From the sequence record MN101221.1: a stretch of 64,000 nt of DNA; one strand, written 5' to 3'. The stretch is from Klebsiella phage KMI7. The notes beneath the pieces were generated by a model. The model made no database searches and had not been told where the DNA came from. It worked only from the letters and a program-made list of their open reading frames with translations. This document shows, one piece after another, positions 2,439-54,728 of the stretch (its first letter is position 1; each line of letters begins with the position of its first letter). A program made the translations under genes and the position numbers.

Positions 2439-2971
2439 TAGTAGTTGTTAGCCCAACGGCGGAGGTTTTCGGCTTGTTTCAGTGCATACAGTTTGTAGAT
2501 AGTTTCCGCATCCATACCCAGCGCCAGGAATTTGCACATAAAGAAATGCCACTGATCGATAAGTTCAAACAGAACTTCTAAACGATCCTCTTCACTCAGA
2601 TCCGCAAATTTAGTATTGCGCAATTCCTGGTGATTTGCTTTCCACGGTTTCCAAACACCGGATGCAGGTTTAACACCGCGAGACATTCCACCCAGAGCGG
2701 TATACAATTCGCGGGTTTCGTCGGCGATCGCGTCATCTTGCAGTTTCAGCCAATCAAGGATTTCTCCGCAAGTTTCCAGATTATCTGGACGCGGAACCCA
2801 ATGCAGCGTATCAGACAGGCTTTGTTGTGCATGGTTTTGTAAATCCAGCATGGATTGTAAAGGATCACCATTACGGGCCAGAATCTTTTGATATTCGGAA
2901 TCTACAAATTCCAGATCTTCCGGGTTAACCAGGTGCGCACATGAATTAAATACAGGAGTTTTATCAGTCAT
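2438..2971 (-). CDS. MazG-like all-alpha NTP pyrophosphohydrolase (putative)
   Basis: 177 aa. ExxE (ADETRELY) followed by an EDRLEVLFELID motif about 50 aa later. This is the MazG ExxE...ExxD spacing. From sequence only. Confidence 0.4.
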   Translation of the reverse strand: MTDKTPVFNSCAHLVNPEDLEFVDSEYQKILARNGDPLQSMLDLQNHAQQSLSDTLHWVPRPDNLETCGEILDWLKLQDDAIADETRELYTALGGMSRGVKPASGVWKPWKANHQELRNTKFADLSEEDRLEVLFELIDQWHFFMCKFLALGMDAETIYKLYALKQAENLRRWANNY

Positions 2972-2978
2972 ATCAATC

Positions 2979-4004
2979 TCATTTTTTCGGTGATTTGTCC
3001 CACGACTTAAATCGAAGTTTTGCCGTGAGTCCAGAAACAGTATTATCTTTCAAATACTGCATAATTTCAAGTTTAGTTGCGCCGTCCGTTTTTATCATTT
3101 CGTTGATATCTTTGGAAGGCCACGGGCATTTGTCCCACATTACAACCTTTTCTCCAGCCTCAATCAATTTAAAGAGGCGGTGAGTAGTATCCGGATGACG
3201 TGCTTCATTGTCAAGAACCCAGACACGCATATTTTTATACGGAACCTCAGAAAGCGCAAGCTGTCCACCAGTGATAGCGCCAGCATTATCAACAAACAGG
3301 CTATCTAATGGCCCCTCAAGAAGATAAACCGTTTTTAGCGGATCTATCGTATCCTGTCCGTAAATCTTAGTTGATTCCTCACAGGCTTTGATTGTGATAT
3401 ATTTCGACTTAGCACCATCACGTAAAGCACGGCCCTGGAAAGATTCTATTTTACCTTTCTTATCGAAGATAGGGATCACTAATCTCGGTTCTGGTTTTGC
3501 GATCGGATAGGTATCCGGATTCACAGTATTAACCAGTTGTTGCCATTCGCGAGTAAACCACAACCGATCCCACTTGTCACGGGGAATACAACGATTTTGC
3601 ACATATTTTATGATCGGATGTTCATCCGGCAAGGTATCTAACCTTTCGCAGAATTGAAGAGTAGGAATAAATTTCTTCTCTTCCTTCGGTTGTTCTGTAT
3701 GTGTTGGCTTTAACGAATTGCGATCCTTAAACGATTCCATGAGATAATCACGGTAATCGTCTGGATAATATTCTTTCAGGAATACGCTAAACGGTACACC
3801 ATAACCACAGTTAAAACAACCACAATTCATATGATCGCCCTTTTTAGAAGGGTAGATCCAAAATCGTTTTTTGTACTTGTCTTTCATTGAGTCGCCGCAA
3901 ATAGGGCAACGCGCATTGATGCTTAATGCCCCTGATTTACGAACGATTTCGCTTTGAGGCAATGATCCCATGATTCGGGTTGCAAATTCTATATCAAGAT
4001 ACAT
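2979..4004 (-). CDS. 61: DNA primase gp61
   Basis: 341 aa. N-terminal zinc ribbon CPICGDS...CGCFNC. Length and position (between dda and gene 41) match T4 gp61 (342 aa). Confidence 0.88.
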   Translation of the reverse strand: MYLDIEFATRIMGSLPQSEIVRKSGALSINARCPICGDSMKDKYKKRFWIYPSKKGDHMNCGCFNCGYGVPFSVFLKEYYPDDYRDYLMESFKDRNSLKPTHTEQPKEEKKFIPTLQFCERLDTLPDEHPIIKYVQNRCIPRDKWDRLWFTREWQQLVNTVNPDTYPIAKPEPRLVIPIFDKKGKIESFQGRALRDGAKSKYITIKACEESTKIYGQDTIDPLKTVYLLEGPLDSLFVDNAGAITGGQLALSEVPYKNMRVWVLDNEARHPDTTHRLFKLIEAGEKVVMWDKCPWPSKDINEMIKTDGATKLEIMQYLKDNTVSGLTAKLRFKSWDKSPKK

Positions 4005-4007
4005 TTC

Positions 4008-4268
4008 TTACCTCAGTTGACTATCTTTCGATCCTCGTCGATTATACCCGGCGCTGATCATTTCGTCATGTTCTTTTTGGCATTCAATACAATAACGGCA
4101 ACCCTTCACGATAGCCCTACGCTTTTCGGGTATCGGATCCCCACAATCAAAACAATGCGTTAATGATTCTCCGTTTCTGATTTGAGAACGTGCAAAATCT
4201 ATCGCATTGTCTATTGTTGTCTGGATGGTATCTTGAACACCGTCAGCAGGGCCAAATCCAACCGCCAT
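4008..4268 (-). CDS. TraR/DksA-family C4 zinc-finger protein
   Basis: 86 aa. CFDCGDPIPEKRRAIVKGCRYCIECQ matches the C-x2-C-x17-C-x2-C-Q signature of DksA/TraR. Confidence 0.6.
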   Translation of the reverse strand: MAVGFGPADGVQDTIQTTIDNAIDFARSQIRNGESLTHCFDCGDPIPEKRRAIVKGCRYCIECQKEHDEMISAGYNRRGSKDSQLR

Positions 4269-4323
4269 TGTAAATCCTCCTAATCAAATGATTTGAATAT
4301 CATAGACTAAGAGGATTTTTCTG

Positions 4324-4821
4324 TCAACTGGTTAATTTCTTTTTCTTTTTACCTGCACGGGTAACACCTAATACTTTCGGCCCGATGTTGGTTACTGCTC
4401 CAGTAGTCACACCAGAAGCAATCTTTTCCGGATCGCCGCCAGAATCGCCAGCGACCATATCCTCTAACATACGCCCCTTATCATAATATTCTTTGAGGCG
4501 TGGAACGTTCAGCATGATTTCTTCATGCTCTTGTTCCGTCAGATTGTAGCGATTGCGTAAGGTATCATATGAACTGGTTAAGTTCATAAATCCAGTCATA
4601 TACGGAACAGAATTCATTCGACGCTTGATATGGCGTACTGAACGATGAAAAGGAGAATACGCTTCTAACTCTTCTTTTGTTTTGGGGTTGCGAATTACTT
4701 CGCCTTGTCCATCAAGGATCCCCAGCTTGTAAGCAGTCCATTCAGTCCAGGGCTTTTTGAGTAGCCGGATCATCCGGACGCTATATGTTAAATCCATATT
4801 TTTAACTAATTGATCACTCAT
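4324..4821 (-). CDS. hypothetical protein (165 aa), lysine-rich C-terminus
   Basis: Long open frame, co-directional. C-terminal KKKKK tail. Confidence 0.5.
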   Translation of the reverse strand: MSDQLVKNMDLTYSVRMIRLLKKPWTEWTAYKLGILDGQGEVIRNPKTKEELEAYSPFHRSVRHIKRRMNSVPYMTGFMNLTSSYDTLRNRYNLTEQEHEEIMLNVPRLKEYYDKGRMLEDMVAGDSGGDPEKIASGVTTGAVTNIGPKVLGVTRAGKKKKKLTS

Positions 4822-4826
4822 GATTA

Positions 4827-5603
4827 TTACTCTATTGTGAAAGTGAATAAATCAGATTTGGTTTCAGGTTCAAACTCCATACAAACAACCTCGCATAGTG
4901 GTTTAACCCCTTTCCAATCCTCCAGGTAATACCCAGTATCTATACCGCATCCAGGATTCATAACAAGGCCAGTTTCATCAAGAAACTTTTTGCATTTACT
5001 TGATGTGGTGCTGTCATCTTGTCGGAAACAATGTGTTTTCGAATACCGGAAATTTGCAGACATTTGAGGGATTATGAAAGTTCCCTGACGCGCGATCTGT
5101 GATGCACGTTCGATTACTTTATACTCAAATTCTGCCCCTGTATACTTACCCTTAAAATCAGAGGTTTTGATTTTACCAAAAGGCGGATTACTGATCGCCA
5201 TATCAAACACCTGATTAAATTCAGTTGTTAAGGCGTCTCCATGCACCCAGGAGGCTTCTGGTACGATACGCTTACCTAACTCATAGTATGTGTGATTTAA
5301 CTCAACACAGACGATTTCACGCGGCGTATTGTACATCATGTAATGAACCATAGCGAAAGATAATCCACCGATACCAGCACACAGGTCAATAACGCTTCCA
5401 CCTGTGCAAGCATCGATTGTGAAATCGCGAGCAAGTCCAATAGGGGTAAAGAACGCCCCTAATTCAGAGTTGTTTGTAAACGCGCCTTCATGAAAGTTTT
5501 CGATAATGAACAACTTCTCTTCGTAAGTTAGCGCTTTGTCAGAGTGAACCAGATCCATTATCTGATTGTGTTTCTTGGTTTCCGCTTTCGTTAACTTTGC
5601 CAT
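4827..5603 (-). CDS. gamma-class N6-adenine (amino) methyltransferase-like protein
   Basis: Motif X FFTP, motif I VIDLCAGIGG and motif IV NPPF in gamma-class order. Start trimmed to MAKL (ATG 5601-5603, weak SD). The longer ORF-track N-terminal extension looks non-protein-like. Confidence 0.65.
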   Translation of the reverse strand: MAKLTKAETKKHNQIMDLVHSDKALTYEEKLFIIENFHEGAFTNNSELGAFFTPIGLARDFTIDACTGGSVIDLCAGIGGLSFAMVHYMMYNTPREIVCVELNHTYYELGKRIVPEASWVHGDALTTEFNQVFDMAISNPPFGKIKTSDFKGKYTGAEFEYKVIERASQIARQGTFIIPQMSANFRYSKTHCFRQDDSTTSSKCKKFLDETGLVMNPGCGIDTGYYLEDWKGVKPLCEVVCMEFEPETKSDLFTFTIE

Positions 5604-46010: not shown

Positions 46011-46955
46011 ATGACTCACTTGAAAAAATTCAAAGAATTTCTGACCGAAGGTAAAACCCTCGCTCGTACCGTAGCACGTGGTCAACGCGCTAAAACTTCC
46101 GATAAACATTCAATCGGTTTTCTTCACTTCAAACATGGTTCTGATTTCGAAGTTTTAGCACCGGATTCTCACGATCTGGCATACTTCGGTAAAAACATTG
46201 TACGTTTGAAAGGTATGACTACTGGTAAAGTTCAAGCGGCTTATGTCGATTGGGCTAAAGGTACTGTTTCTTTCTACAGTGGTAATCCGGATAATGATAT
46301 GGATTTCGATAAACCAGAAAAATTCAAAGCTGCTACTCTGTATGAAGAGGCGGAAGAAAATCTGGATCTGTATAACCAGTTAGCAGAAGATTTCGAAATC
46401 GAGATCCCTATGGATGAAGCTCTGGTGAAAGGTAAAGTTTACAAACTCCCAAGCAACGATATGCGTCTTCTGTACACTGGGCGTTCTAAAACTAAAGCAA
46501 GCGGTGAATATGCAGTGTTTACCGTAGTCGATGCTTCCGGTAAACCTCGCCTGGTATCTGGTAAAAAATTCACCCAGGAATATAAAGGCGATATGGTTTC
46601 TAAACTGGTTCTGGCTGAATCGGAGGAAATCAATGAAGCTGTTGTGGGGAAGTCCTCACCTAATGTTAAAAAATTGGTTGCTGCACTAAAGAAAAAGTTT
46701 GATGTTTACGTGGAAGTAGAAAAAAAGAAATTTTACAACGAAAAGACTGAATCATTCGAATATGAAACCGTCGTTAGTGTTGAATACTACGAAAAAGGCG
46801 AAGATTCAGAACCGATCGGCGTATTCCGTACATCAGACGACCAGAAATTTACATTTGGTCATATCTACAGTAAAGCGGGTTCTGATCATGGTAAAGCGTT
46901 TGATGTAGCACATATTGTTTCCGGAATTAAAACCGGACATTACGATCCTAAGTAA
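46011..46955 (+). CDS. lysine-rich protein with internal-protein-like N-terminal capsid-targeting sequence (candidate injected internal protein)
   Basis: Start MTHLKKFKEFLTE|G with an AGGAAA SD. Resembles the T4 IP CTS (MKxYxEFIAE, LxE cleavage). Strong GGT/CGT/CTG/GCT codon bias. Has its own promoters and terminator. Confidence 0.5.
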   Translation: MTHLKKFKEFLTEGKTLARTVARGQRAKTSDKHSIGFLHFKHGSDFEVLAPDSHDLAYFGKNIVRLKGMTTGKVQAAYVDWAKGTVSFYSGNPDNDMDFDKPEKFKAATLYEEAEENLDLYNQLAEDFEIEIPMDEALVKGKVYKLPSNDMRLLYTGRSKTKASGEYAVFTVVDASGKPRLVSGKKFTQEYKGDMVSKLVLAESEEINEAVVGKSSPNVKKLVAALKKKFDVYVEVEKKKFYNEKTESFEYETVVSVEYYEKGEDSEPIGVFRTSDDQKFTFGHIYSKAGSDHGKAFDVAHIVSGIKTGHYDPK

Positions 46956-47861: not shown

Positions 47862-48329
47862 TTACTGACCTCGCCACCCAAAAACTTTTTTGAGTGATTC
47901 TTCTGTTACTATTTTGAACTGCCAGCCTTTTTGACGGCATAGCTCATTTGCGGCTTTCCACTTATCAATATTAACTGTATAGGTGTAAAGAGCATCAATA
48001 AATTTCTTTTTATTGTGTACGTTGTTGTTTACTGGCTTCGGTGGAGGCATGGTTTCTTTAAGGGGCTTAACCTCCCAAAGATATGTAGTACCATTTTCCA
48101 TTTCCACATAGAAATCCATGTAATAGCGCCTTCTCTTACCGTCTGCGTTGCAGAAATACGGGATCACTATACATTCAGAATTCCAACGTTTTACGTGTGG
48201 GTTTTTATCCAGCCACTTCATAACGTAGCGCTCCCACGATGACCTATACGTAATCTTTCGCGGATCGCCTTTATACTTCTGTATGTTTTCGGGTACAAAC
48301 GACCCTTTATACGTCTGTCTTCCAGCCAT
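47862..48329 (-). CDS. 4: head completion protein gp4
   Basis: 155 aa. YRSSWE, IPYF, YYMDFYV and WEVKP match my recall of T4 gp4 (150 aa). Confidence 0.8.
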   Translation of the reverse strand: MAGRQTYKGSFVPENIQKYKGDPRKITYRSSWERYVMKWLDKNPHVKRWNSECIVIPYFCNADGKRRRYYMDFYVEMENGTTYLWEVKPLKETMPPPKPVNNNVHNKKKFIDALYTYTVNIDKWKAANELCRQKGWQFKIVTEESLKKVFGWRGQ

Positions 48330-48379: not shown

Positions 48380-48934
48380 GTGCTATTTTCATACTTCCCG
48401 CCTGTTGATTACAAAGGCACCCAGACAACTGATATTTTCCGAGACTATCGATTTTATTTTAATCGTGTGATTGGAAAATATAAAACCCGTAGTTACCAGA
48501 TAACAGGCACACTACGACCTGAACAACTTGCAGAATCATTATATGGAAACCAGCAATACTACTGGATCCTGTTGATGCTTAACTCTGTTTATGACCCTTT
48601 CTATGGTTGGATCAGCGATCAGGAAGCCGCGTATCAGTGCGCTATACAGCGTTATTCTGAGGTTGGCGGTGAACAGGTTCTGTATCATGTAGATGAAAAC
48701 AACAACAAGTATTATAACCTTGTCGAAGACCCCAATAACCCTGGTCATTGGTATGACAAAGGCGACAAACCAATGCTGTATTTACAGTATCAAGGTGTAT
48801 TAGCTCCTGTAGATATTTATGAAGATGCAGTGTTGCAAAATGAAGCAAAACGAACAATAAAAATCATTAGTCCGTCTGACATCCAGGCGTTTCTGAATGA
48901 TTTTATTAAAGAAATGGAAAAGGCTAACTCATGA
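48380..48934 (+). CDS. 53: baseplate wedge protein gp53
   Basis: 184 aa, GTG start. Collinear with T4 gp53 (TDIFR.Y..YF.R, YWILLM.N..YDPFYGWI..QEAAYQ, VYHV.EN..KYYNL). Confidence 0.85.
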   Translation: MLFSYFPPVDYKGTQTTDIFRDYRFYFNRVIGKYKTRSYQITGTLRPEQLAESLYGNQQYYWILLMLNSVYDPFYGWISDQEAAYQCAIQRYSEVGGEQVLYHVDENNNKYYNLVEDPNNPGHWYDKGDKPMLYLQYQGVLAPVDIYEDAVLQNEAKRTIKIISPSDIQAFLNDFIKEMEKANS

Positions 48935-50700
48935 AATTAGGCGGAAATTTACACTCACCTTTCTTTGATGGGGTGGTTGAAAACGTTGATGATCCGCGCG
49001 GGTTGGGCCGTGTTCAAGTCCGTGTATTTGGACAACACCCAGCCCAAAAACAAAAATCCGATGCAATCGGTGTTCCTGTTGAAGATTTACCCTGGATGAT
49101 GCCTATTCAGGATATTAGAAGCGCTGCGATCTCTGGTGTGGGCTTCTCTCCAACTGGTATCACTCGCGGATCCTTTGTTGTTGGTTATTGGCGTGACAAA
49201 TGGCACCAAGATGGTATGATAATCGGTACTGTCGCTGGTGAATATGTCGAACAACCAGACACACAGAAAGGTTTTTGCGATCCTATGGGTGAATACCCTC
49301 GCTATGTTGGTAACGATGTTAACTCCCTTGCATTAGGTGGTTTGAAAGGCAAAGGATCATCAAGTGTCATCATTCGTGATTCAAACACAAGCATAGCAGT
49401 AAACCCAGACGATCGCCCACTGGATGAGATACCAGAAGATAACCGCCCTGATACGGGTGGATTTACGATCGAAAAGATGCTCAAACAGGATGAGGGGATC
49501 CGCACACGCTGGTATACAGACAGTGAAGGATATCCGACAATTGGGATCGGGCATTTGCTTATCCGCGAAAAGACTCGCGACACTGCAAAAATTAACGCTG
49601 CGATCAGTAAAGCGGTAGGTCGAGAAGTAACAAACGGAACAATCACGGCAGAAGAGGTATCAACCTTATTTGCTCAAGATTTAGCCAAAGTAAGATCTGA
49701 TATTCAGAGAACCGCTAACGTCCGTGAAGTGTATGTGAACCTCAACCGTCCTCGTCAAATGGCGATCGAAAACATGTCGTTTCAAATGGGCGTCGGCGGT
49801 GTTGCTAAATTCACCAATACCCTAAAAGCGATGAAAAATGAAGATTGGCAAGCGGCTTATAATGGTCTTCGAAATTCACTGTGGGCTAGTCAAACTCCAG
49901 GCCGTTCTTCTCGCGTGTCTAAAATCGTCCTCACGGGCAACCTTGAATCATATGGGGTGCAAGTACCAGATCCGGAAGGGCGCTCTCTGAGTGCTGCTTA
50001 CGCTGCGTATAACGGTGCTACATTGTTGGCTGCTAGTCCGGAAGATCCGTTTACTCCTGGTGATACCCGTGTGATGTTTGAAGAACCAGCATCATCTTAT
50101 AATGCGGAATATCCGTATAACATGGTGTTTGAATCGAGATCCGGACACATTCAGGAATTCGATGATACCCCAGGATACGAACGATATAACCGTGTTCACC
50201 CAGCAGGGAGTTACGAAGAAATTCGCCCGGATGGAACCCGCGTTGTTAAAATCGTAGGGGATGATTATCAGATTGTGATGCAGGGCCGGAAACTCAACGT
50301 TAAAGGCAACTTGCAGGTAGTTATTGAAGGCGATGCGTTCATTTACAACATGGGTAACGTTCAACAAACGGTTGATGGTAACGTAACTGAATTTGTTCGT
50401 GGAAACGTTCAACAAACGGTTGAAGGTGAGTACGTTGGCCTTATTAAAGGCAATGCTGAACTAACTGTAAACAAAGATGCAACAGTTAACGTTGATCAGA
50501 ATCTTACCGCAAATGTGAAACAGAATGCAACCGTGGCTGTAACAGAAGACGCAACGGTCAGTGCAAAAAATGCGAAAATTGAGATTGAAGAAACGATGGA
50601 TATCGGTGCTAAAGATATCAATATCAAAGCAACGAATAACACGTTTATTGACTCTGGCGCATTAACAAAAATCACTGGCGGCACCGTCCAAGTGGGGTAA
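48931..50700 (+). CDS. 5: baseplate hub/central spike with lysozyme domain gp5
   Basis: 589 aa. OB-fold N-terminus. T4-lysozyme-like domain GYPTIGIGHLL...MSFQMG. C-terminal VxGxxxxN beta-helix repeats. Confidence 0.92.
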   Translation: MKLGGNLHSPFFDGVVENVDDPRGLGRVQVRVFGQHPAQKQKSDAIGVPVEDLPWMMPIQDIRSAAISGVGFSPTGITRGSFVVGYWRDKWHQDGMIIGTVAGEYVEQPDTQKGFCDPMGEYPRYVGNDVNSLALGGLKGKGSSSVIIRDSNTSIAVNPDDRPLDEIPEDNRPDTGGFTIEKMLKQDEGIRTRWYTDSEGYPTIGIGHLLIREKTRDTAKINAAISKAVGREVTNGTITAEEVSTLFAQDLAKVRSDIQRTANVREVYVNLNRPRQMAIENMSFQMGVGGVAKFTNTLKAMKNEDWQAAYNGLRNSLWASQTPGRSSRVSKIVLTGNLESYGVQVPDPEGRSLSAAYAAYNGATLLAASPEDPFTPGDTRVMFEEPASSYNAEYPYNMVFESRSGHIQEFDDTPGYERYNRVHPAGSYEEIRPDGTRVVKIVGDDYQIVMQGRKLNVKGNLQVVIEGDAFIYNMGNVQQTVDGNVTEFVRGNVQQTVEGEYVGLIKGNAELTVNKDATVNVDQNLTANVKQNATVAVTEDATVSAKNAKIEIEETMDIGAKDINIKATNNTFIDSGALTKITGGTVQVG

Positions 50701-50704
50701 TTAA

Positions 50705-52771
50705 ATGATTATGGATTATGAATCAATAATTGATGGAATTATGCAAAATTATCAACATCCTTGTGATGCTGAGATCCCCGCTGGCTATTATCGGCGGGTT
50801 ATCTGGCAAGGGCATACAGAAAATTATCCGGCTGTTGGGGTTGAGTGGGATACCGAGATAATCAAAATCGGTACTCATCTTTATACTCAAGAACCGTTCG
50901 GACATAGAAGCACGGATCTACCTGTTGTCAATTCACCAGGAACAGATCCAAATACCGGACAACCAACAGGGATCCTTGTTCCAAAGATTGGTTATTATTT
51001 CAACACTCAAGCAGAAATTGATGCTTACATTACATCTATTGGTGCAACTAAAATCAATGGTGGTAATGATTGGTATGGCGCGGATCTGTCAAAATCAAAC
51101 CTATACAAAAACCCTGGCGAACTGGCTATGTATAAGGTCGAAAACAGTGGTGGATATCTTTCCGGAACAAACCCTGTATGTGATGCTCGCATACGTCAGA
51201 CGTATAATCAGGACACTGGCGCATTCACCAATATTGATTATTATTGGAACGGTAATCGTATAGCCTATATGAAGCATGATGAAACAGGGGCGCACCAGTG
51301 CAAATATACGGGTATGCAGGTTAACACCAACGCAGATACAAGCATTCCTCCTGTTCCTCCTGCAATGCCTTCCACTTATGGGGCATTACCGAGTGAATTA
51401 AGCCGTGCTGATATTTCGTGCATTCCGGCAACTGTTGGTTTCGCATATACAAATATCAGTGATGCTATGTTACAGGCATGGAATGAAACCCGTCATACGT
51501 TCAAGCTACAGTTTAACATGTTAACGGGTGCTGTACAGAATGGATTCGGGATCGCGACGATGTTTGATGGTTTATCCGTATCGATGGAAGAAGTAATGGC
51601 GGGGGCGCTCGCATTGTCACAGCAAGCATGGCAAACTGCTATGAAAGTTTTCAGACAAGTGATTAGCGCTGCATTTAACATTATCGGTGGTGCATGGGGA
51701 TTGATTAATCAGTTCTTGCCTCAAGTAACCATCTTAGGTGTTGCGATCAACATTTACGATCTGGTGTTTGGTGATAATTCTGTTCAGACTTTGAAAGATG
51801 CTTTTAATGCAATCATCAAATCCGGACAACAAACATATGAAACCGTCATAAACGCAATATACGGGGCCATAGGAAGCGCATACAATTACTCTGTGGAATA
51901 TGTCAAAGCTGGCGCTCGCGACCTTGTGGATGCGTGTAGCGCGTTATTTGATTGGTGTTTAACGATGTTCCAAAACGGTTGCGTTGCATTAATCGACTTA
52001 TACGGTCGGATCATGCAAACATGGGCTATCCCTCCGGAAGTCCCAAACCCGTTATGGTCTGCGGTGCTGGCTATCCGTAACATCATGATGCAAATCAAAC
52101 CACTTGATATAATTCTGGGCGGTAACTTCCCTGGATTCACTGCAATGGATTTGTATCAACAAGCACAGGAAAAAGTCAAGGCTTTTGTTGATGAGTCATA
52201 CGAACAGATCCGAGGGCTTTATGAACAGGGGCAGGAACTTTACAAAACGTTAAAAAATCAGATTTTCGAACGTGATGCAATTCAGAGAAAATTCAACCAG
52301 TACTTAAACTGGATGTGGGGCGCTGTAACAGACGAAGCAACAGCGGCTTATCAATCTGCATTGGATGCTGCAAACGCTGCTGTAGCTGCAACACAGGCCG
52401 CGTATGACGCTATACAGGAACAGATTGGATCTCTACAAGATGCAATGAAAGATACATACAGCATGGCGATGGAAGAATTAAAGAAATTGCCTTTGATGAG
52501 TACAATAAACGAGTTTTTAGGCTTCTGTGGTGTCGCATTTGACGATCTTCTCAAGTCATATGAAAATGCGATTACTGGTGCTCAGTCGCTGTACAAAAAT
52601 TTCATTGATAGTTCGCGCTCGTTTAAAGATCACTGCAAAGTAATCTATAACCAAATTTGTACGTTGGCGTTGAGTAAAGTCACACAATATGTGAATAAAT
52701 TGCTGTCTCTCATAGGATTAGCAATCAACTTTGGTTCGATTAGTGTATGTGTTCCAGTACTGAAATACTAA
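50705..52771 (+). CDS. uncharacterised 688-aa protein in the gp5.1/gp5.4 position (Gly/Asn-rich N-domain, helix-rich hydrophobic C-domain)
   Basis: Long ORF starting 5 nt after the gp5 stop. No PAAR motifs. C-terminal 450 aa are Ala/Gln-rich helices with several long hydrophobic segments. Confidence 0.6.
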   Translation: MIMDYESIIDGIMQNYQHPCDAEIPAGYYRRVIWQGHTENYPAVGVEWDTEIIKIGTHLYTQEPFGHRSTDLPVVNSPGTDPNTGQPTGILVPKIGYYFNTQAEIDAYITSIGATKINGGNDWYGADLSKSNLYKNPGELAMYKVENSGGYLSGTNPVCDARIRQTYNQDTGAFTNIDYYWNGNRIAYMKHDETGAHQCKYTGMQVNTNADTSIPPVPPAMPSTYGALPSELSRADISCIPATVGFAYTNISDAMLQAWNETRHTFKLQFNMLTGAVQNGFGIATMFDGLSVSMEEVMAGALALSQQAWQTAMKVFRQVISAAFNIIGGAWGLINQFLPQVTILGVAINIYDLVFGDNSVQTLKDAFNAIIKSGQQTYETVINAIYGAIGSAYNYSVEYVKAGARDLVDACSALFDWCLTMFQNGCVALIDLYGRIMQTWAIPPEVPNPLWSAVLAIRNIMMQIKPLDIILGGNFPGFTAMDLYQQAQEKVKAFVDESYEQIRGLYEQGQELYKTLKNQIFERDAIQRKFNQYLNWMWGAVTDEATAAYQSALDAANAAVAATQAAYDAIQEQIGSLQDAMKDTYSMAMEELKKLPLMSTINEFLGFCGVAFDDLLKSYENAITGAQSLYKNFIDSSRSFKDHCKVIYNQICTLALSKVTQYVNKLLSLIGLAINFGSISVCVPVLKY

Positions 52772-52802: not shown

Positions 52803-54728
52803 ATGGCTACTGCTAAGACTAAGACTGTCAAAAAACAGATTAACCAAATCCCCGATATCTTTATCGGGGGTACTTTCGAAGAAATTAAATCGGATCTGAT
52901 TGATTGGCTGGGTGGACAAGAAGAGTTTAAGGATTACGATTTTTCCGGCTCACGAATGAACGTACTGATCGACCTTCTGTCGTATGCTACTCTTTATATT
53001 CAGCAGATGGGTAACACGGCTCTATTTGAATCGTTTATTCGCACGGCTGCGTTGCGTAGTTCTGTTGTACAGTCTGCTCAAGAACTGGGATATATGCCAG
53101 ATTCGCGCACGGCTGCAAGCACAGCAGTTATGATTACGGCTGCTAACCCACTGACCCCAACATCGATCCGTATCCCGCGCGGTACAAAATTCATCGGTAC
53201 TGTAAAGAATACAGACAGTTATTCTTTTGTTGTATCAGATGACGTTGTTATCGTTCGTGATAGTAATAACAACTATACATCAATGCTGAACCTGGTGCAA
53301 GGCCGTTTAGTTCGTACTGAACTAATTTATGACGGTTCGAGTATCTTGATCCGAGATCCAAACATTGACCGTAGTCAGGTACGTTTAACTGTAAACGGCG
53401 CACAATGGGAAGACTGGACAAACGAAAGCATTGTAAACGCAACAGGCGCAAGCACGATTTACTACATGCGTGAAACTGTTGATGGACATACCGAAGTTTA
53501 TTTCGGTGAAGGTGAAGCAAGTCAACAAGTGGCTGGTGGCGCACTAACCGCTGAATATATCGGGGGCTTGAAACCTGCTAATGGTTCGACTATCGTTATT
53601 GAGTACCTGTCAACCGATGGGGAAGCGGCTAACGGTGCAAAAGATTTTATCTATGTCGATACATTAACCAATATTAGCATCACTAACATCGAAGAAAACC
53701 CGACTAAATCCCCTGATTATGTTGGTGCTGATGGTGGTGGTGATCCGGAAGATATCGAGCGTATTCGAGAACTGGCCCCTGTTATGCGTGAAACACAACG
53801 CCGTTGTGTAACTGCATCGGATTATGAATCATTCCTGTCTCACAGATTTGGTTCTATCATCCAGGCGGTACAGTGCTTTACTGATAACGAAAAACCTGGT
53901 TATGCTTTCATTTCTGTTAAACCAAAGTCAGGTTTACGCCTAACATCGGTACAGAAAGAAGATATGCAAACGTATCTTTCGAAATATAACCTAGCGACGA
54001 TCACCCCGTCGATTATGGATCCTAACTATCTGTATATTGTGCAATCTGTCAAAGTAACGTATGATATCAGTAAGTTGACGGAATCAGAGGAATGGTTACG
54101 CGGTCAGGTTATTTCGTCGATCGACTCTTACTATACTGACAACGTTGAAATTTTCAACAAATCTTTCAGTGTATCTAAGATGTTGACTTATGTCGATCAG
54201 TCTGATACTTCTATTATCGGTTCGGAAGCAGATATTAAATTGCTCCGTGAAATTGACAACTATTACAGCGCCCCTATGTCTGGGATCCATTTCTTGAACC
54301 AAGTGGAATCTAAATCAATCATTTCCAGTACGTTCAAGTTCACCAACGAAGAAGACGAAAGTTATGATGTTCGTTATGCTTCTACGGAAATGGATCAGGA
54401 TGGTAACGCAAAAATTGTAATAGGCCCGTTCAAGGATGGGGATATTTCGATCGCTGCTTATACAGGCGATGACTTTGAAAAATTAACAGATGCAGGAACC
54501 CGTAATAAATATTACGAAGTTGGATCGGTTTCTCATTACACCGATTTCATTAGTTTTGACCTGGGCGTTCTGAACGTATCCGCCGATAGTTTCAGCGCTG
54601 CTTATATCGAGCTAAATGCAAAACCTCTCGAAGAAACCATTTTTACTCGCGATGGTTCGTTGATCGTGTTTGAAAATGACCTGCGTCCTCAATATACCAC
54701 ATTGACTATGAATCCTATCAGTCAATAA
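52803..54728 (+). CDS. 6: baseplate wedge protein gp6
   Basis: 641 aa. Extensive collinearity with T4 gp6 (IPDIFIGGTF.EIK, GADGGGDPEDIERIREL, TRDGSLIVFENDLRPQY). Confidence 0.92.
   Translation: MATAKTKTVKKQINQIPDIFIGGTFEEIKSDLIDWLGGQEEFKDYDFSGSRMNVLIDLLSYATLYIQQMGNTALFESFIRTAALRSSVVQSAQELGYMPDSRTAASTAVMITAANPLTPTSIRIPRGTKFIGTVKNTDSYSFVVSDDVVIVRDSNNNYTSMLNLVQGRLVRTELIYDGSSILIRDPNIDRSQVRLTVNGAQWEDWTNESIVNATGASTIYYMRETVDGHTEVYFGEGEASQQVAGGALTAEYIGGLKPANGSTIVIEYLSTDGEAANGAKDFIYVDTLTNISITNIEENPTKSPDYVGADGGGDPEDIERIRELAPVMRETQRRCVTASDYESFLSHRFGSIIQAVQCFTDNEKPGYAFISVKPKSGLRLTSVQKEDMQTYLSKYNLATITPSIMDPNYLYIVQSVKVTYDISKLTESEEWLRGQVISSIDSYYTDNVEIFNKSFSVSKMLTYVDQSDTSIIGSEADIKLLREIDNYYSAPMSGIHFLNQVESKSIISSTFKFTNEEDESYDVRYASTEMDQDGNAKIVIGPFKDGDISIAAYTGDDFEKLTDAGTRNKYYEVGSVSHYTDFISFDLGVLNVSADSFSAAYIELNAKPLEETIFTRDGSLIVFENDLRPQYTTLTMNPISQ

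What the first reader, a model, noticed from the sequence alone, without database searches (positions are those of the whole stretch)
50705..52771. Uncharacterised 688-aa ORF occupying the gp5.4/PAAR slot between baseplate hub gp5 and wedge gp6
In T4 only small genes (5.1, 5.3, 5.4 PAAR tip) lie between genes 5 and 6. Here a single 688-aa ORF starts 5 nt after the gp5 stop and no PAAR-like gene is present. Its first 250 aa or so are Gly/Asn/Tyr/Thr-rich. The remainder is Ala/Gln-rich helix (AAYQSALDAANAAVAATQAAYDAIQEQIGSLQ) with several 20-35 aa hydrophobic or amphipathic segments (VISAAFNIIGGAWGLINQFLPQVTILGVAINIYDLVF; LLSLIGLAINFGSISVCVPVL). The composition resembles pore-forming or membrane-inserting domains and tape-measure-like helical proteins. 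Because it sits in the central-spike locus, it is a candidate spike-tip-associated cargo or membrane-active ejection protein. That role is inferred from position and composition only.
Basis: partly seen in the sequence, partly recalled or inferred. Interest (0 to 1): 0.7.

Follow-up and report, generated by a model that had tools for sequence, protein, structure and literature searches.

The report
Non-PAAR spike-tip protein of pseudo-T-even phages
This 688-aa gene is the Klebsiella Slopekvirus copy of a protein already proposed in the literature (RB43 orf205w, Helios gp203) to cap the phage's cell-puncturing spike instead of T4's small PAAR tip, and comparative genomics here strongly supports that role but not a pore-forming or tape-measure one.

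Summary
The ORF (50705-52771, +, 688 aa) is real. It starts 4 nt after the gene 5 stop and precedes gene 6. No gp5.4/PAAR, 5.1 or 5.3 homologue exists in the window or in a complete Slopekvirus genome.

It belongs to a closed, always full-length family (phrog_5296) found only in T4-like phages. Two papers already propose this family as a non-PAAR spike tip: RB43 orf205w (2025 preprint, 17.7 A cryo-EM) and Slopekvirus Helios gp203 (2026, AlphaFold3 complex). The finding is therefore already known as a hypothesis.

New support found here:
- In two pairs of near-identical phages (Dhakavirus FB vs QL01; Tequatrovirus SG1 vs T4), the last ~77-88 codons of gp5 plus this ORF replace the last ~62-73 codons of gp5 plus 5.1/5.4 as one cassette.
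- In all 8 named lineages and all 12 IMG/VR loci examined (a few are the same phages), ORF-bearing phages share a distinct gp5 C-terminus (...GGTVQVG).

Other results:
- The AlphaFold2 model is confident (pLDDT 87).
- The "hydrophobic segments" are not conserved transmembrane helices.
- The tape-measure resemblance is compositional, and a canonical gp29 exists elsewhere.
- The pore-forming/ejection reading is unsupported.

The parts
48931..50700 (+). Gene 5 homologue: central spike protein with OB domain, lysozyme domain and C-terminal triple-stranded beta-helix (589 aa).
   Evidence: Pfam Gp5_OB 1e-58, Phage_lysozyme 1e-11, Gp5_C 7e-10. 50% identity to T4 gp5 over residues 10-538.
50428..50700 (+). 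3' end of gene 5 (about the last 90 codons): the RB43-type beta-helix tip ending ...KITGGTVQVG. It co-varies with the downstream ORF and moves with it as one cassette. The left boundary is approximate.
   Evidence: FB/QL01 and SG1/T4 homology ends at gp5 codons ~519 and ~502. The same C-terminal motif occurs in 8 lineages and in 12/12 IMG/VR loci.
50694..50697 (+). GGGG Shine-Dalgarno-like element inside the last codons of gene 5, 7 nt upstream of the ORF's ATG. It suggests translational coupling.
   Evidence: Read directly from the sequence. The function is inferred.
50705..52771 (+). The 688-aa ORF: orthologue of RB43 orf205w and Helios gp203 (phrog_5296), the putative non-PAAR spike-tip protein.
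   Evidence: phrog_5296 E=0 over the full length. 99-100% identical in Slopekviruses and 79% to RB16. Literature.
50705..51334 (+). N-terminal alpha/beta domain (aa 1-210). It folds autonomously and has no known structural relative. It carries the family's most conserved motif, NDWYGADLSK (aa 121-130), and the invariant cysteines C20 and C199.
51581..51772 (+). Core helix 1 (aa 293-327) plus the conserved following segment (aa 328-356, NIVGGxW...FLPxITIxG).
   Evidence: AF2 H293-327 and E341-348. Matches the published core helix 287-327. 4-9 charged residues in most homologues.
51911..52144 (+). Core helix 2 (aa 403-440) plus the highly conserved following segment (aa 441-480: PPxVPNP ... IKPLDxILSGNFPGFTA).
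   Evidence: AF2 H403-440. Published core helix 398-440. Conservation peak of 0.92 at aa 470-480.
52145..52444 (+). Long Ala/Gln-rich helical hairpin arm (aa 481-580). It is the least conserved part of the protein and the source of the tape-measure-like database hits.
   Evidence: AF2 H480-534 and H543-580. Mean conservation 0.44. TMP and apolipoprotein-like hits map here.
52292..52336 (+). Loop at the turn of the hairpin (aa 530-544, consensus FxQYLxGMWExVTDE). It is a conserved island in the variable arm and probably the distal apex of the spike.
   Evidence: Q532 92%, Y533 97%, M537 89%. Tip conservation 0.57 against 0.43 and 0.38 for the two arm helices. The Helios paper describes a 'loop at the tip'. 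Its identity with this loop is inferred.
52610..52768 (+). Core helix 3 (aa 636-669, LSKVTQWVNKLL) plus the C-terminal strand (aa 670-688, FPxISxCxPxxKY). This is the second 'hydrophobic segment' of the finding.
   Evidence: AF2 H636-669 and E679-687. Published core helix 631-670. Conservation 0.77. Up to 6 charged residues in homologues.
52803..54728 (+). Gene 6 homologue (baseplate wedge), which forms the right-hand boundary of the exchangeable cassette.
   Evidence: Five gp6 Pfam domains. In FB/QL01 and SG1/T4, homology resumes just upstream of the gp6 start: about 10 nt in both pairs, inside the last codons of the tip-locus gene.

Best explanation
The ORF encodes a ~76-kDa structural protein that sits on the blunt C-terminal end of the trimeric gp5 beta-helix. 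It forms the distal tip of the cell-puncturing spike. In this phage lineage it does the job that the 97-aa PAAR protein gp5.4 (possibly together with gp5.1) does in T4.

SHOWN HERE
(i) It is a full-length orthologue of RB43 orf205w and Helios gp203.
(ii) It always lies directly after gene 5 (gap -4 to +4 nt).
(iii) Phages that have it lack gp5.4, 5.1 and 5.3.
(iv) It is inherited and exchanged together with the last ~80-90 residues of gp5 as one cassette. Two otherwise 95-100% identical phage pairs differ only by [gp5 tip + ORF] versus [gp5 tip + 5.1 + 5.4].
(v) It has a confident, non-PAAR fold: a new alpha/beta N-domain, an intramolecular three-helix core and a ~100-residue helical hairpin.

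INFERRED
- One copy binds the trimer.
- The three-helix core continues the spike axis.
- The conserved Pro/Gly-rich segments after each core helix (aa 337-345, 464-480, 676-684) form the base that contacts the last strand (GGTVQVG) of each gp5 chain.
- The hairpin projects distally, so that its conserved aromatic loop (aa 530-544) is the first part of the virion to meet the outer membrane on sheath contraction.
- The protein then enters the periplasm with the gp5 beta-helix. This is by analogy with the P2 spike localisation reported in PMC12407873.
For: - Family and synteny.
- Absence of PAAR, 5.1 and 5.3: and PMC12407873.
- Cassette swap with sharp DNA breakpoints: FB/QL01; SG1/T4.
- gp5 C-terminal motif co-occurrence: 8/8 lineages and 12/12 IMG/VR loci, against T4/QL01 ending ...GSRIDIG.
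- Structure: AF2 pLDDT 87.3, pTM 0.78. The core helices coincide with the published AF3 core.
- Conservation concentrated in the core and post-helix segments.
- Literature: 17.7 A cryo-EM of RB43 shows a larger tip density than T4. An AF3 model of (gp202)3-gp203 shows a gp5/gp5.4-like hydrophobic contact.
Against: - I found no direct biochemical detection of the protein in virions. The only virion proteome I located for a phage I take to be ORF-bearing (Morganella MP1, PM2/Bragavirus-like) detected neither gp5 nor any protein between gp2 and the gp6-like wedge. I did not confirm that MP1 carries the ORF.
- Co-expression of orf205w with a gp5 beta-helix fragment failed.
- The cryo-EM map is 17.7 A and C6-averaged, so the density is not assigned.
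- The interface, the stoichiometry and the hairpin orientation rest on AlphaFold models, and I could not run a multimer prediction.
- Sequence-level pseudo-threefold repetition of the three helix-plus-segment units is not statistically detectable.
Confidence: 0.75

Rival explanations
1. Membrane-active ejection protein. The helical region refolds and inserts into the inner membrane to form or nucleate a pore or conduit for DNA, like the soluble-to-membrane switch of alpha-pore-forming toxins or tape-measure C-termini. This is compatible with a tip location but adds a second activity.
For: - Two hydrophobic stretches in this sequence.
- Weak profile hits to tape-measure proteins and to Hbl-B (E=0.018).
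- A conserved aromatic loop at the hairpin turn.
Against: - The hydrophobic stretches are not conserved as TM helices. Most members carry 4-9 charged residues in them, and 7 of 37 members have no KD >= 1.6 window.
- They are modelled confidently as buried strands or turns.
- TMP similarity lies only in apolipoprotein-like regions.
- In T4 and P2 the spike is thought to stop in the periplasm.
Confidence: 0.1
2. Non-virion assembly factor: a chaperone or scaffold specific for folding or trimerising the RB43-type gp5 beta-helix end. It would co-vary with the gp5 tip but not be part of the particle.
For: - Cassette co-variation demands only a specific interaction, not virion incorporation.
- No virion MS detection was found.
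- Complex formation by co-expression failed.
Against: - RB43 particles show extra tip density where T4 has gp5.4.
- No other candidate tip gene exists in these genomes.
- A 76-kDa, highly conserved, rigid three-helix/hairpin architecture is unlike known phage tail chaperones.
- T4 gp5 folds without a dedicated beta-helix chaperone in this locus (established knowledge).
Confidence: 0.07
3. A second tape-measure or tube-lumen protein, as some automated annotations state ('tail length tape measure protein').
For: - Pharokka-type annotations in several records.
- PHROG TMP hits at E 1e-8 to 3e-3.
Against: - No TMP signature domain (PhageMin_Tail, TMP_3, etc.).
- No significant similarity to T4 gp29.
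- A canonical 593-aa gp29 lies between gp48 and gp28 in the hub cluster.
- The globular 210-aa N-domain and compact bundle are incompatible with an extended tube-lumen protein.
- It is exchangeable with the 5.1+5.4 genes without any change to tail genes.
Confidence: 0.02

Closest known systems
RB43 orf205w / Slopekvirus Helios gp203 (phrog_5296), the putative non-PAAR spike tip (PMC12407873; PMC13611949)
   Same: Same family over its full length: 79% identity to the RB16-group protein and 99-100% within Slopekvirus. Same position after gene 5, same absence of gene 5.4, same RB43-type gp5 C-terminus, and the same predicted three-helix core.
   Different: Nothing substantive; this is another member. 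Added here: the natural cassette swaps, the closed distribution of the family, a high-confidence monomer model, and negative fold, PAAR and gp5.1 tests.
T4 gp5.4 and PAAR-repeat proteins (PF05488) of phage and T6SS spikes
   Same: The gene lies in the same locus. The predicted role is the same: a single protein capping the blunt end of a trimeric beta-helical spike. It is naturally interchangeable with gp5.4 (+5.1) in otherwise near-identical phages.
   Different: No sequence or fold relationship. It is 688 aa against 97 aa. It has a helical bundle, a hairpin and a new alpha/beta domain instead of a small beta-cone. It needs a different gp5 C-terminus.
Phage P1 UpfB alpha-helical tripod on the PAAR protein UpfC (as described in PMC13611949)
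   Same: An alpha-helical extension with a distal loop beyond the beta-helical spike.
   Different: In P1 the tripod is three copies of a separate protein attached to a true PAAR. Here a single chain is predicted to supply the three helices, and there is no PAAR. Homology was not tested.
Tape-measure proteins (T4 gp29; PhageMin_Tail / TMP_3 families)
   Same: Ala/Gln-rich amphipathic helices, which give weak profile hits.
   Different: No signature domain, a different locus, a globular fold, and a canonical gp29 present elsewhere.
T4 gp5.1 (PF26906)
   Same: It is lost together with gp5.4 whenever this ORF is present. The Helios paper proposes the ORF as an analogue of a gp5.1/gp5.4 complex.
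   Different: Profile-profile probability is 0.2%. No BFVD structural match for the N-domain was named as gp5.1 or scored better than E=0.24.

Membership tests
phrog_5296 / RB43 orf205w-type spike-tip family | Full-length sequence homology to orf205w-type proteins (~660-760 aa) | tested here: met
   phrog_5296 E=0, positions 3-688 vs 1-685/685. 79% identity to RB16p191. 62 full-length clusters.
phrog_5296 / RB43 orf205w-type spike-tip family | Gene immediately downstream of gene 5, replacing genes 5.1-5.4 | tested here: met
   4-nt gap in the window. Same arrangement in 7 further lineages and 12 IMG/VR loci.
phrog_5296 / RB43 orf205w-type spike-tip family | Genome lacks a gp5.4/PAAR orthologue | tested here: met
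   tblastn and phmmer on the window and on the complete Slopekvirus genome mtp7.
phrog_5296 / RB43 orf205w-type spike-tip family | Partner gp5 carries the RB43-type C-terminal beta-helix end | tested here: met
   The window gp5 ends KITGGTVQVG, as in RB16.
phrog_5296 / RB43 orf205w-type spike-tip family | Physical location at the spike tip of the virion | not testable with these tools
   The only evidence is the 17.7 A RB43 map and AlphaFold fits in the literature.
PAAR / T4 gp5.4 | PAAR-repeat sequence signature (PF05488) | tested here: not met
   No Pfam hit. No similarity to T4 or QL01 gp5.4.
PAAR / T4 gp5.4 | Small conical beta-structure fold | tested here: not met
PAAR / T4 gp5.4 | Single copy bound to the blunt end of the trimeric spike beta-helix | tested here: inconclusive
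   Supported indirectly by the gp5-tip/ORF cassette co-variation and by the published AF3 model. No direct test was possible.
Tape-measure proteins | TMP signature domain, or homology to T4 gp29 | tested here: not met
   No such Pfam domain. BLASTP against gp29 gives E=0.039 in low-complexity helix. The outside hits align only to apolipoprotein-like regions of TMPs.
Tape-measure proteins | Is the phage's tail-length determinant, encoded in the hub/tube cluster | tested here: not met
   A canonical 593-aa gp29 (phrog_7361 E=0; phrog_1283 7e-11) lies between gp48 and gp28 in mtp7.
Alpha-pore-forming toxins (ClyA/Hbl/AhlC/YaxB type) | Specific fold match with a conserved hydrophobic membrane-insertion hairpin | tested here: not met
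T4 gp5.1 (PF26906) | Sequence or structural homology to gp5.1 | tested here: not met
   hhalign probability 0.2%. BFVD search of the N-domain finds only its own family at E<=0.001; no other match was named as gp5.1 or scored better than E=0.24.

The most novel reading that the evidence does not exclude
The protein is more than a passive sharpening cap. It would be a single-copy, 76-kDa 'effector-like' tip. Its novel-fold N-terminal domain (invariant NDWYGADLSK, E139, E146 and four conserved Cys) and its conserved aromatic hairpin loop would carry out a specific step after outer-membrane puncture. Candidate steps are binding LPS or a periplasmic or inner-membrane host factor, or nucleating the inner-membrane conduit. 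That would make the [gp5 tip + tip protein] cassette a horizontally exchangeable host-entry determinant in T4-like phages.
Probability: 0.15. Interest if true: 0.7.

Novelty: already known. Interest (0 to 1): 0.4.

Why it matters
Spike tips are the first part of a contractile injection machine to meet the target membrane, and almost all characterised ones are PAAR cones or fused apex domains. This family is a large, non-PAAR alternative with a new fold.

It is naturally interchangeable with gp5.4/gp5.1 inside T4's own genus. T4-like phages therefore offer isogenic-like pairs (SG1/T4, FB/QL01) for asking what a tip contributes to host range, LPS dependence and fitness.

For Klebsiella therapy phages (Slopekvirus) it corrects a recurrent mis-annotation ('tape measure'). 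The basic idea is, however, already published.

Tried and rejected
- PDB sequence-profile search: only coiled-coil noise.
- NCBIfam: nothing.
- Exhaustive HMM search of 1.84 billion representatives: the family is closed, and the only outside hits are weak and lie in TMP amphipathic regions.
- Homology to gp5.1: rejected.
- Internal threefold repeat by hhalign: not significant, 0.8-9% against controls of 0.2-1.7%.
- Virion proteomics: the KP15/KP27 paper has no MS. The Jiaodavirus MS paper is irrelevant because those phages are gp5.4-type. The ECLFM1 paper gave no usable list. MP1 MS missed gp5 as well, so it is uninformative.
- Apparent natural knockouts: phT4A is a 100-N assembly gap, and kp20 is a 1-nt deletion in a CCC run that is probably a sequencing error.
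- T4 late-promoter consensus: not enriched in the window and absent between gene 5 and the ORF, so expression timing could not be inferred.
- Two of my own frame-picking scripts gave wrong output. They were redone.
Full report
OBSERVATION

The ORF at 50705-52771 (+, 688 aa) exists exactly as described. Pfam and PHROGs identify its neighbours as gp53 (48380-48934), gp5 (48931-50700; OB, lysozyme, beta-helix), gp6 (52803-54728), gp7 and gp8. The gp5 stop (50698-50700) is followed 4 nt later by the ORF's ATG. A GGGG run lies 7 nt upstream of that ATG, inside the last gp5 codons. The composition statements are correct.

The window is a Slopekvirus-type Klebsiella phage, 99-100% identical to phages 150040, Miro and Matisse.

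IS THERE A PAAR PROTEIN OR A TAPE MEASURE ELSEWHERE?

I assembled a complete Slopekvirus genome (mtp7) and searched it with the T4 proteins.
- The canonical hub cluster is present: gp25, 26, 51, 54, 48, a gp29-like gene, 28 and 27.
- The search returned no hit at E<=1 for gp5.1, 5.3 or 5.4, in that genome or in the window.
- A maximally permissive phmmer search of 2582 stop-to-stop ORFs gives only noise (best E 4.2).
- The gp29-like gene is 593 aa (T4 gp29 is 590 aa). It lies between gp48 and gp28 and matches phrog_7361 'baseplate hub' at E=0 and the 'hub subunit and tail length' family at 7e-11.

So the 688-aa ORF is additional to the real tape measure, and the phage has no PAAR tip.

THE FAMILY

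- The ORF matches phrog_5296 (unknown function) end to end.
- It occurs in 216 phage records and in 62 clusters at 90% identity, all 664-764 aa, down to 32% identity.
- An exhaustive profile search of 1.84 billion representative proteins finds only 8 full-length clusters plus fragments.
- The few outside hits (E 2e-8 to 5e-4) are tape-measure proteins. They align only through their apolipoprotein-like amphipathic-helix regions, not through PhageMin_Tail or TMP_3 domains.
- BLASTP against T4 gp29 is non-significant.

The 'tail length tape measure' label in some records is therefore a compositional artefact.

LITERATURE

Two papers already address this protein.

PMC12407873 (bioRxiv, August 2025):
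- RB43, RB16 and Lw1 lack gene 5.4.
- The 5.1-5.4 locus is occupied by orf205w, about 690 aa. Residues 1-220 are mixed alpha/beta and the rest is helical.
- Co-expression with a gp5 beta-helix fragment failed.
- A 17.7 A cryo-EM map of RB43 shows a larger spike-tip density than T4.
- A low-confidence AlphaFold model fits that density.

PMC13611949 (Viruses, August 2026):
- It identifies the same protein in Slopekvirus Helios (gp203).
- It models (gp202)3-gp203 with AlphaFold3.
- It describes a triple coiled-coil core (287-327, 398-440, 631-670) and a distal loop.
- It speculates that gp203 is a structural analogue of a gp5.1/gp5.4 complex.

NEW COMPARATIVE EVIDENCE

The ORF is not confined to 'pseudo-T-evens'. 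It directly follows gene 5 in:
- Pseudotevenvirus (RB16)
- Bragavirus (SdyM_006)
- Moonvirus (KM16)
- Dhakavirus (vB_EcoM_FB)
- an unclassified Morganella phage
- a genuine Tequatrovirus (SG1)
- a divergent metagenomic contig, where gp25 is inserted before gp6

Two within-genus pairs act as natural experiments.

FB versus QL01 (Dhakavirus):
- gp53 is 98.5% identical and gp6 100%.
- gp5 alignment columns 1-500 are 94-100% identical.
- gp5 identity then drops to 46% and 10.7% over the last ~100 columns.
- At DNA level, homology stops at gp5 codon ~519 and resumes just upstream of the gp6 start, inside the last codons of the tip-locus gene.
- Between the breakpoints FB has [gp5 tip + ORF], whereas QL01 has [gp5 tip + 5.1 + 5.4].

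SG1 versus T4 (Tequatrovirus) reproduces this:
- 97.4% DNA identity up to gp5 codon ~502.
- 95.6% DNA identity from 10 nt before the gp6 start onward.
- In between, [gp5 tip + ORF] replaces [gp5 tip + 5.1 + segC + 5.3 + 5.4].

All 8 ORF-bearing lineages share a gp5 C-terminus ending (I/V/F)(T/S)G(G/A)(T/N)V(Q/V/S)V(G/R). T4 and QL01 end ...YTIDGSRIDIG. All 12 IMG/VR loci carrying the family show the same motif. Their gene 5 stop lies within -4 to +4 nt of the ORF, and no 5.1/5.3/5.4 homologue lies within 3 kb. A few of those loci are the same phages as the named lineages.

The end of the gp5 beta-helix and the downstream gene therefore form one co-adapted, horizontally exchangeable module. That is what is expected if the ORF product docks on that end, and if the two tip systems are functionally equivalent.

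Homing endonuclease genes lie next to the cassette: a GIY-YIG gene upstream of gene 5 in FB, and one between the ORF and gp6 in RB16. They offer a plausible vehicle for the exchange.

STRUCTURE

With a 37-sequence alignment, AlphaFold2 gives a confident monomer model (mean pLDDT 87.3, pTM 0.78). Its elements are:
- an alpha/beta N-terminal region
- three long helices (293-327, 403-440, 636-669) that coincide with the published core
- a ~100-residue helical hairpin (480-534 and 543-580)
- short strands at 341-348 and 679-687

CONSERVATION AND THE 'MEMBRANE' SEGMENTS

- Conservation is highest in the N-domain motif NDWYGADLSK (0.93), in the three core helices, and in the Pro/Gly-rich segments that follow them (ILSGNFPGFTA 0.92; LSKVTQWVNKLL 0.89).
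- It is lowest in the Ala/Gln-rich hairpin arm (0.44).
- Within the arm, the loop at the turn (FxQYLxGMWExVTDE, aa 530-544) is a conserved island.
In most homologues they contain 4-9 charged residues (up to 6 for the C-terminal one).
- 7 of the 37 aligned members have no 19-residue window of KD >= 1.6.

They are best read as buried or interface elements, not as transmembrane helices. An internal threefold repeat of the helix-plus-segment units is not detectable by hhalign, so the pseudo-threefold base remains a structural inference.

MECHANISM

The best-supported reading is a probably single-copy spike-tip protein. It caps the RB43-type end of the gp5 trimer and is co-expressed with gene 5. 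It extends the spike with a rigid helical core and a hairpin whose conserved loop is the apex.

The following are inferred rather than shown: the stoichiometry, the interface residues, the hairpin orientation and the fate of the protein after penetration. The role of the new-fold N-domain and of the four conserved cysteines (C20, C199, C239, C682) is unexplained.

I found no virion-proteomic confirmation. The one dataset for a phage I take to be ORF-bearing (Morganella MP1) also missed gp5, and I did not confirm that MP1 carries the ORF. No credible natural knockouts exist among the records inspected.

VERDICT

- The pore-forming, cargo and tape-measure parts are not supported.
- The cassette-swap evidence, and the finding that T4's own genus contains an ORF-bearing member, appear to add to what the two papers report.

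Noticed in passing
L009 2079-2591 (vB_EcoM_FB) and L012 2497-2870 (RB16): Homing endonuclease genes lie directly beside the tip cassette: a GIY-YIG Seg-like gene between gp53 and gene 5 in FB, and a phrog_655 endonuclease between the ORF and gp6 in RB16. T4 itself has segC inside the 5.1-5.4 locus. They may drive the horizontal exchange of the cassette by co-conversion. In FB vs QL01 the 5' part of gene 5 next to the endonuclease is 93.8% identical, against 98% in the flanks.
   Followed up: partly
window 50705-52771, residues C20, C199, C239, C682: Four cysteines are invariant or >=90% conserved across a family that is otherwise only ~49% identical on average. They are spread from the N-domain to the C-terminal strand. 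They may form a metal site (as in other spike tips) or disulfides.
   Followed up: no
L017 (Salmonella phage SG1, NC_054936.1) 2947-4983: A phage classified in T4's own genus (Tequatrovirus; gp6 N-terminus 98% identical to T4) carries the large tip gene instead of 5.1/segC/5.3/5.4. Its cassette is closest to that of the Dhakavirus FB (gp5 tip 90-92% identical, ORF 73%).
   Followed up: yes
L018 (Klebsiella phage vB_KleM_kp20) ~1725; L019 (phT4A) 1101-1200: In kp20 the ORF is annotated as two CDSs because of a 1-nt deletion in a CCC run inside the invariant GNFPGF motif. This is probably a sequencing error, and gene 5 in that record is mislabelled as ribonucleotide reductase. In phT4A the gene is truncated by a 100-N assembly gap.
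   Followed up: yes
window 46167-46955 (+): A lone plus-strand ORF (262 aa, phrog_7322, unknown function) sits between the minus-strand genes 3 and 2, where T4 has no gene.
   Followed up: partly
window 47862-48329 (-): The gp4-type head completion protein gives a clear Pfam match to the TnsA-like endonuclease N-terminal domain (9.5e-24). This agrees with the 'head completion nuclease' annotations in some records.
   Followed up: no
L011 2542-2967 (metagenomic contig carrying P0062): In the most divergent family member's contig, a gp25-like gene (PF04965) lies between the tip ORF and gp6. In T4 and Slopekvirus, gp25 is in the separate hub cluster.
   Followed up: no
window, whole: The T4 late-promoter consensus TATAAATA occurs only twice in 64 kb (44585 on the minus strand; 54766 on the plus strand, just upstream of gene 7). 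That is fewer than expected by chance, so late promoters in this phage may differ from T4's consensus.
   Followed up: partly
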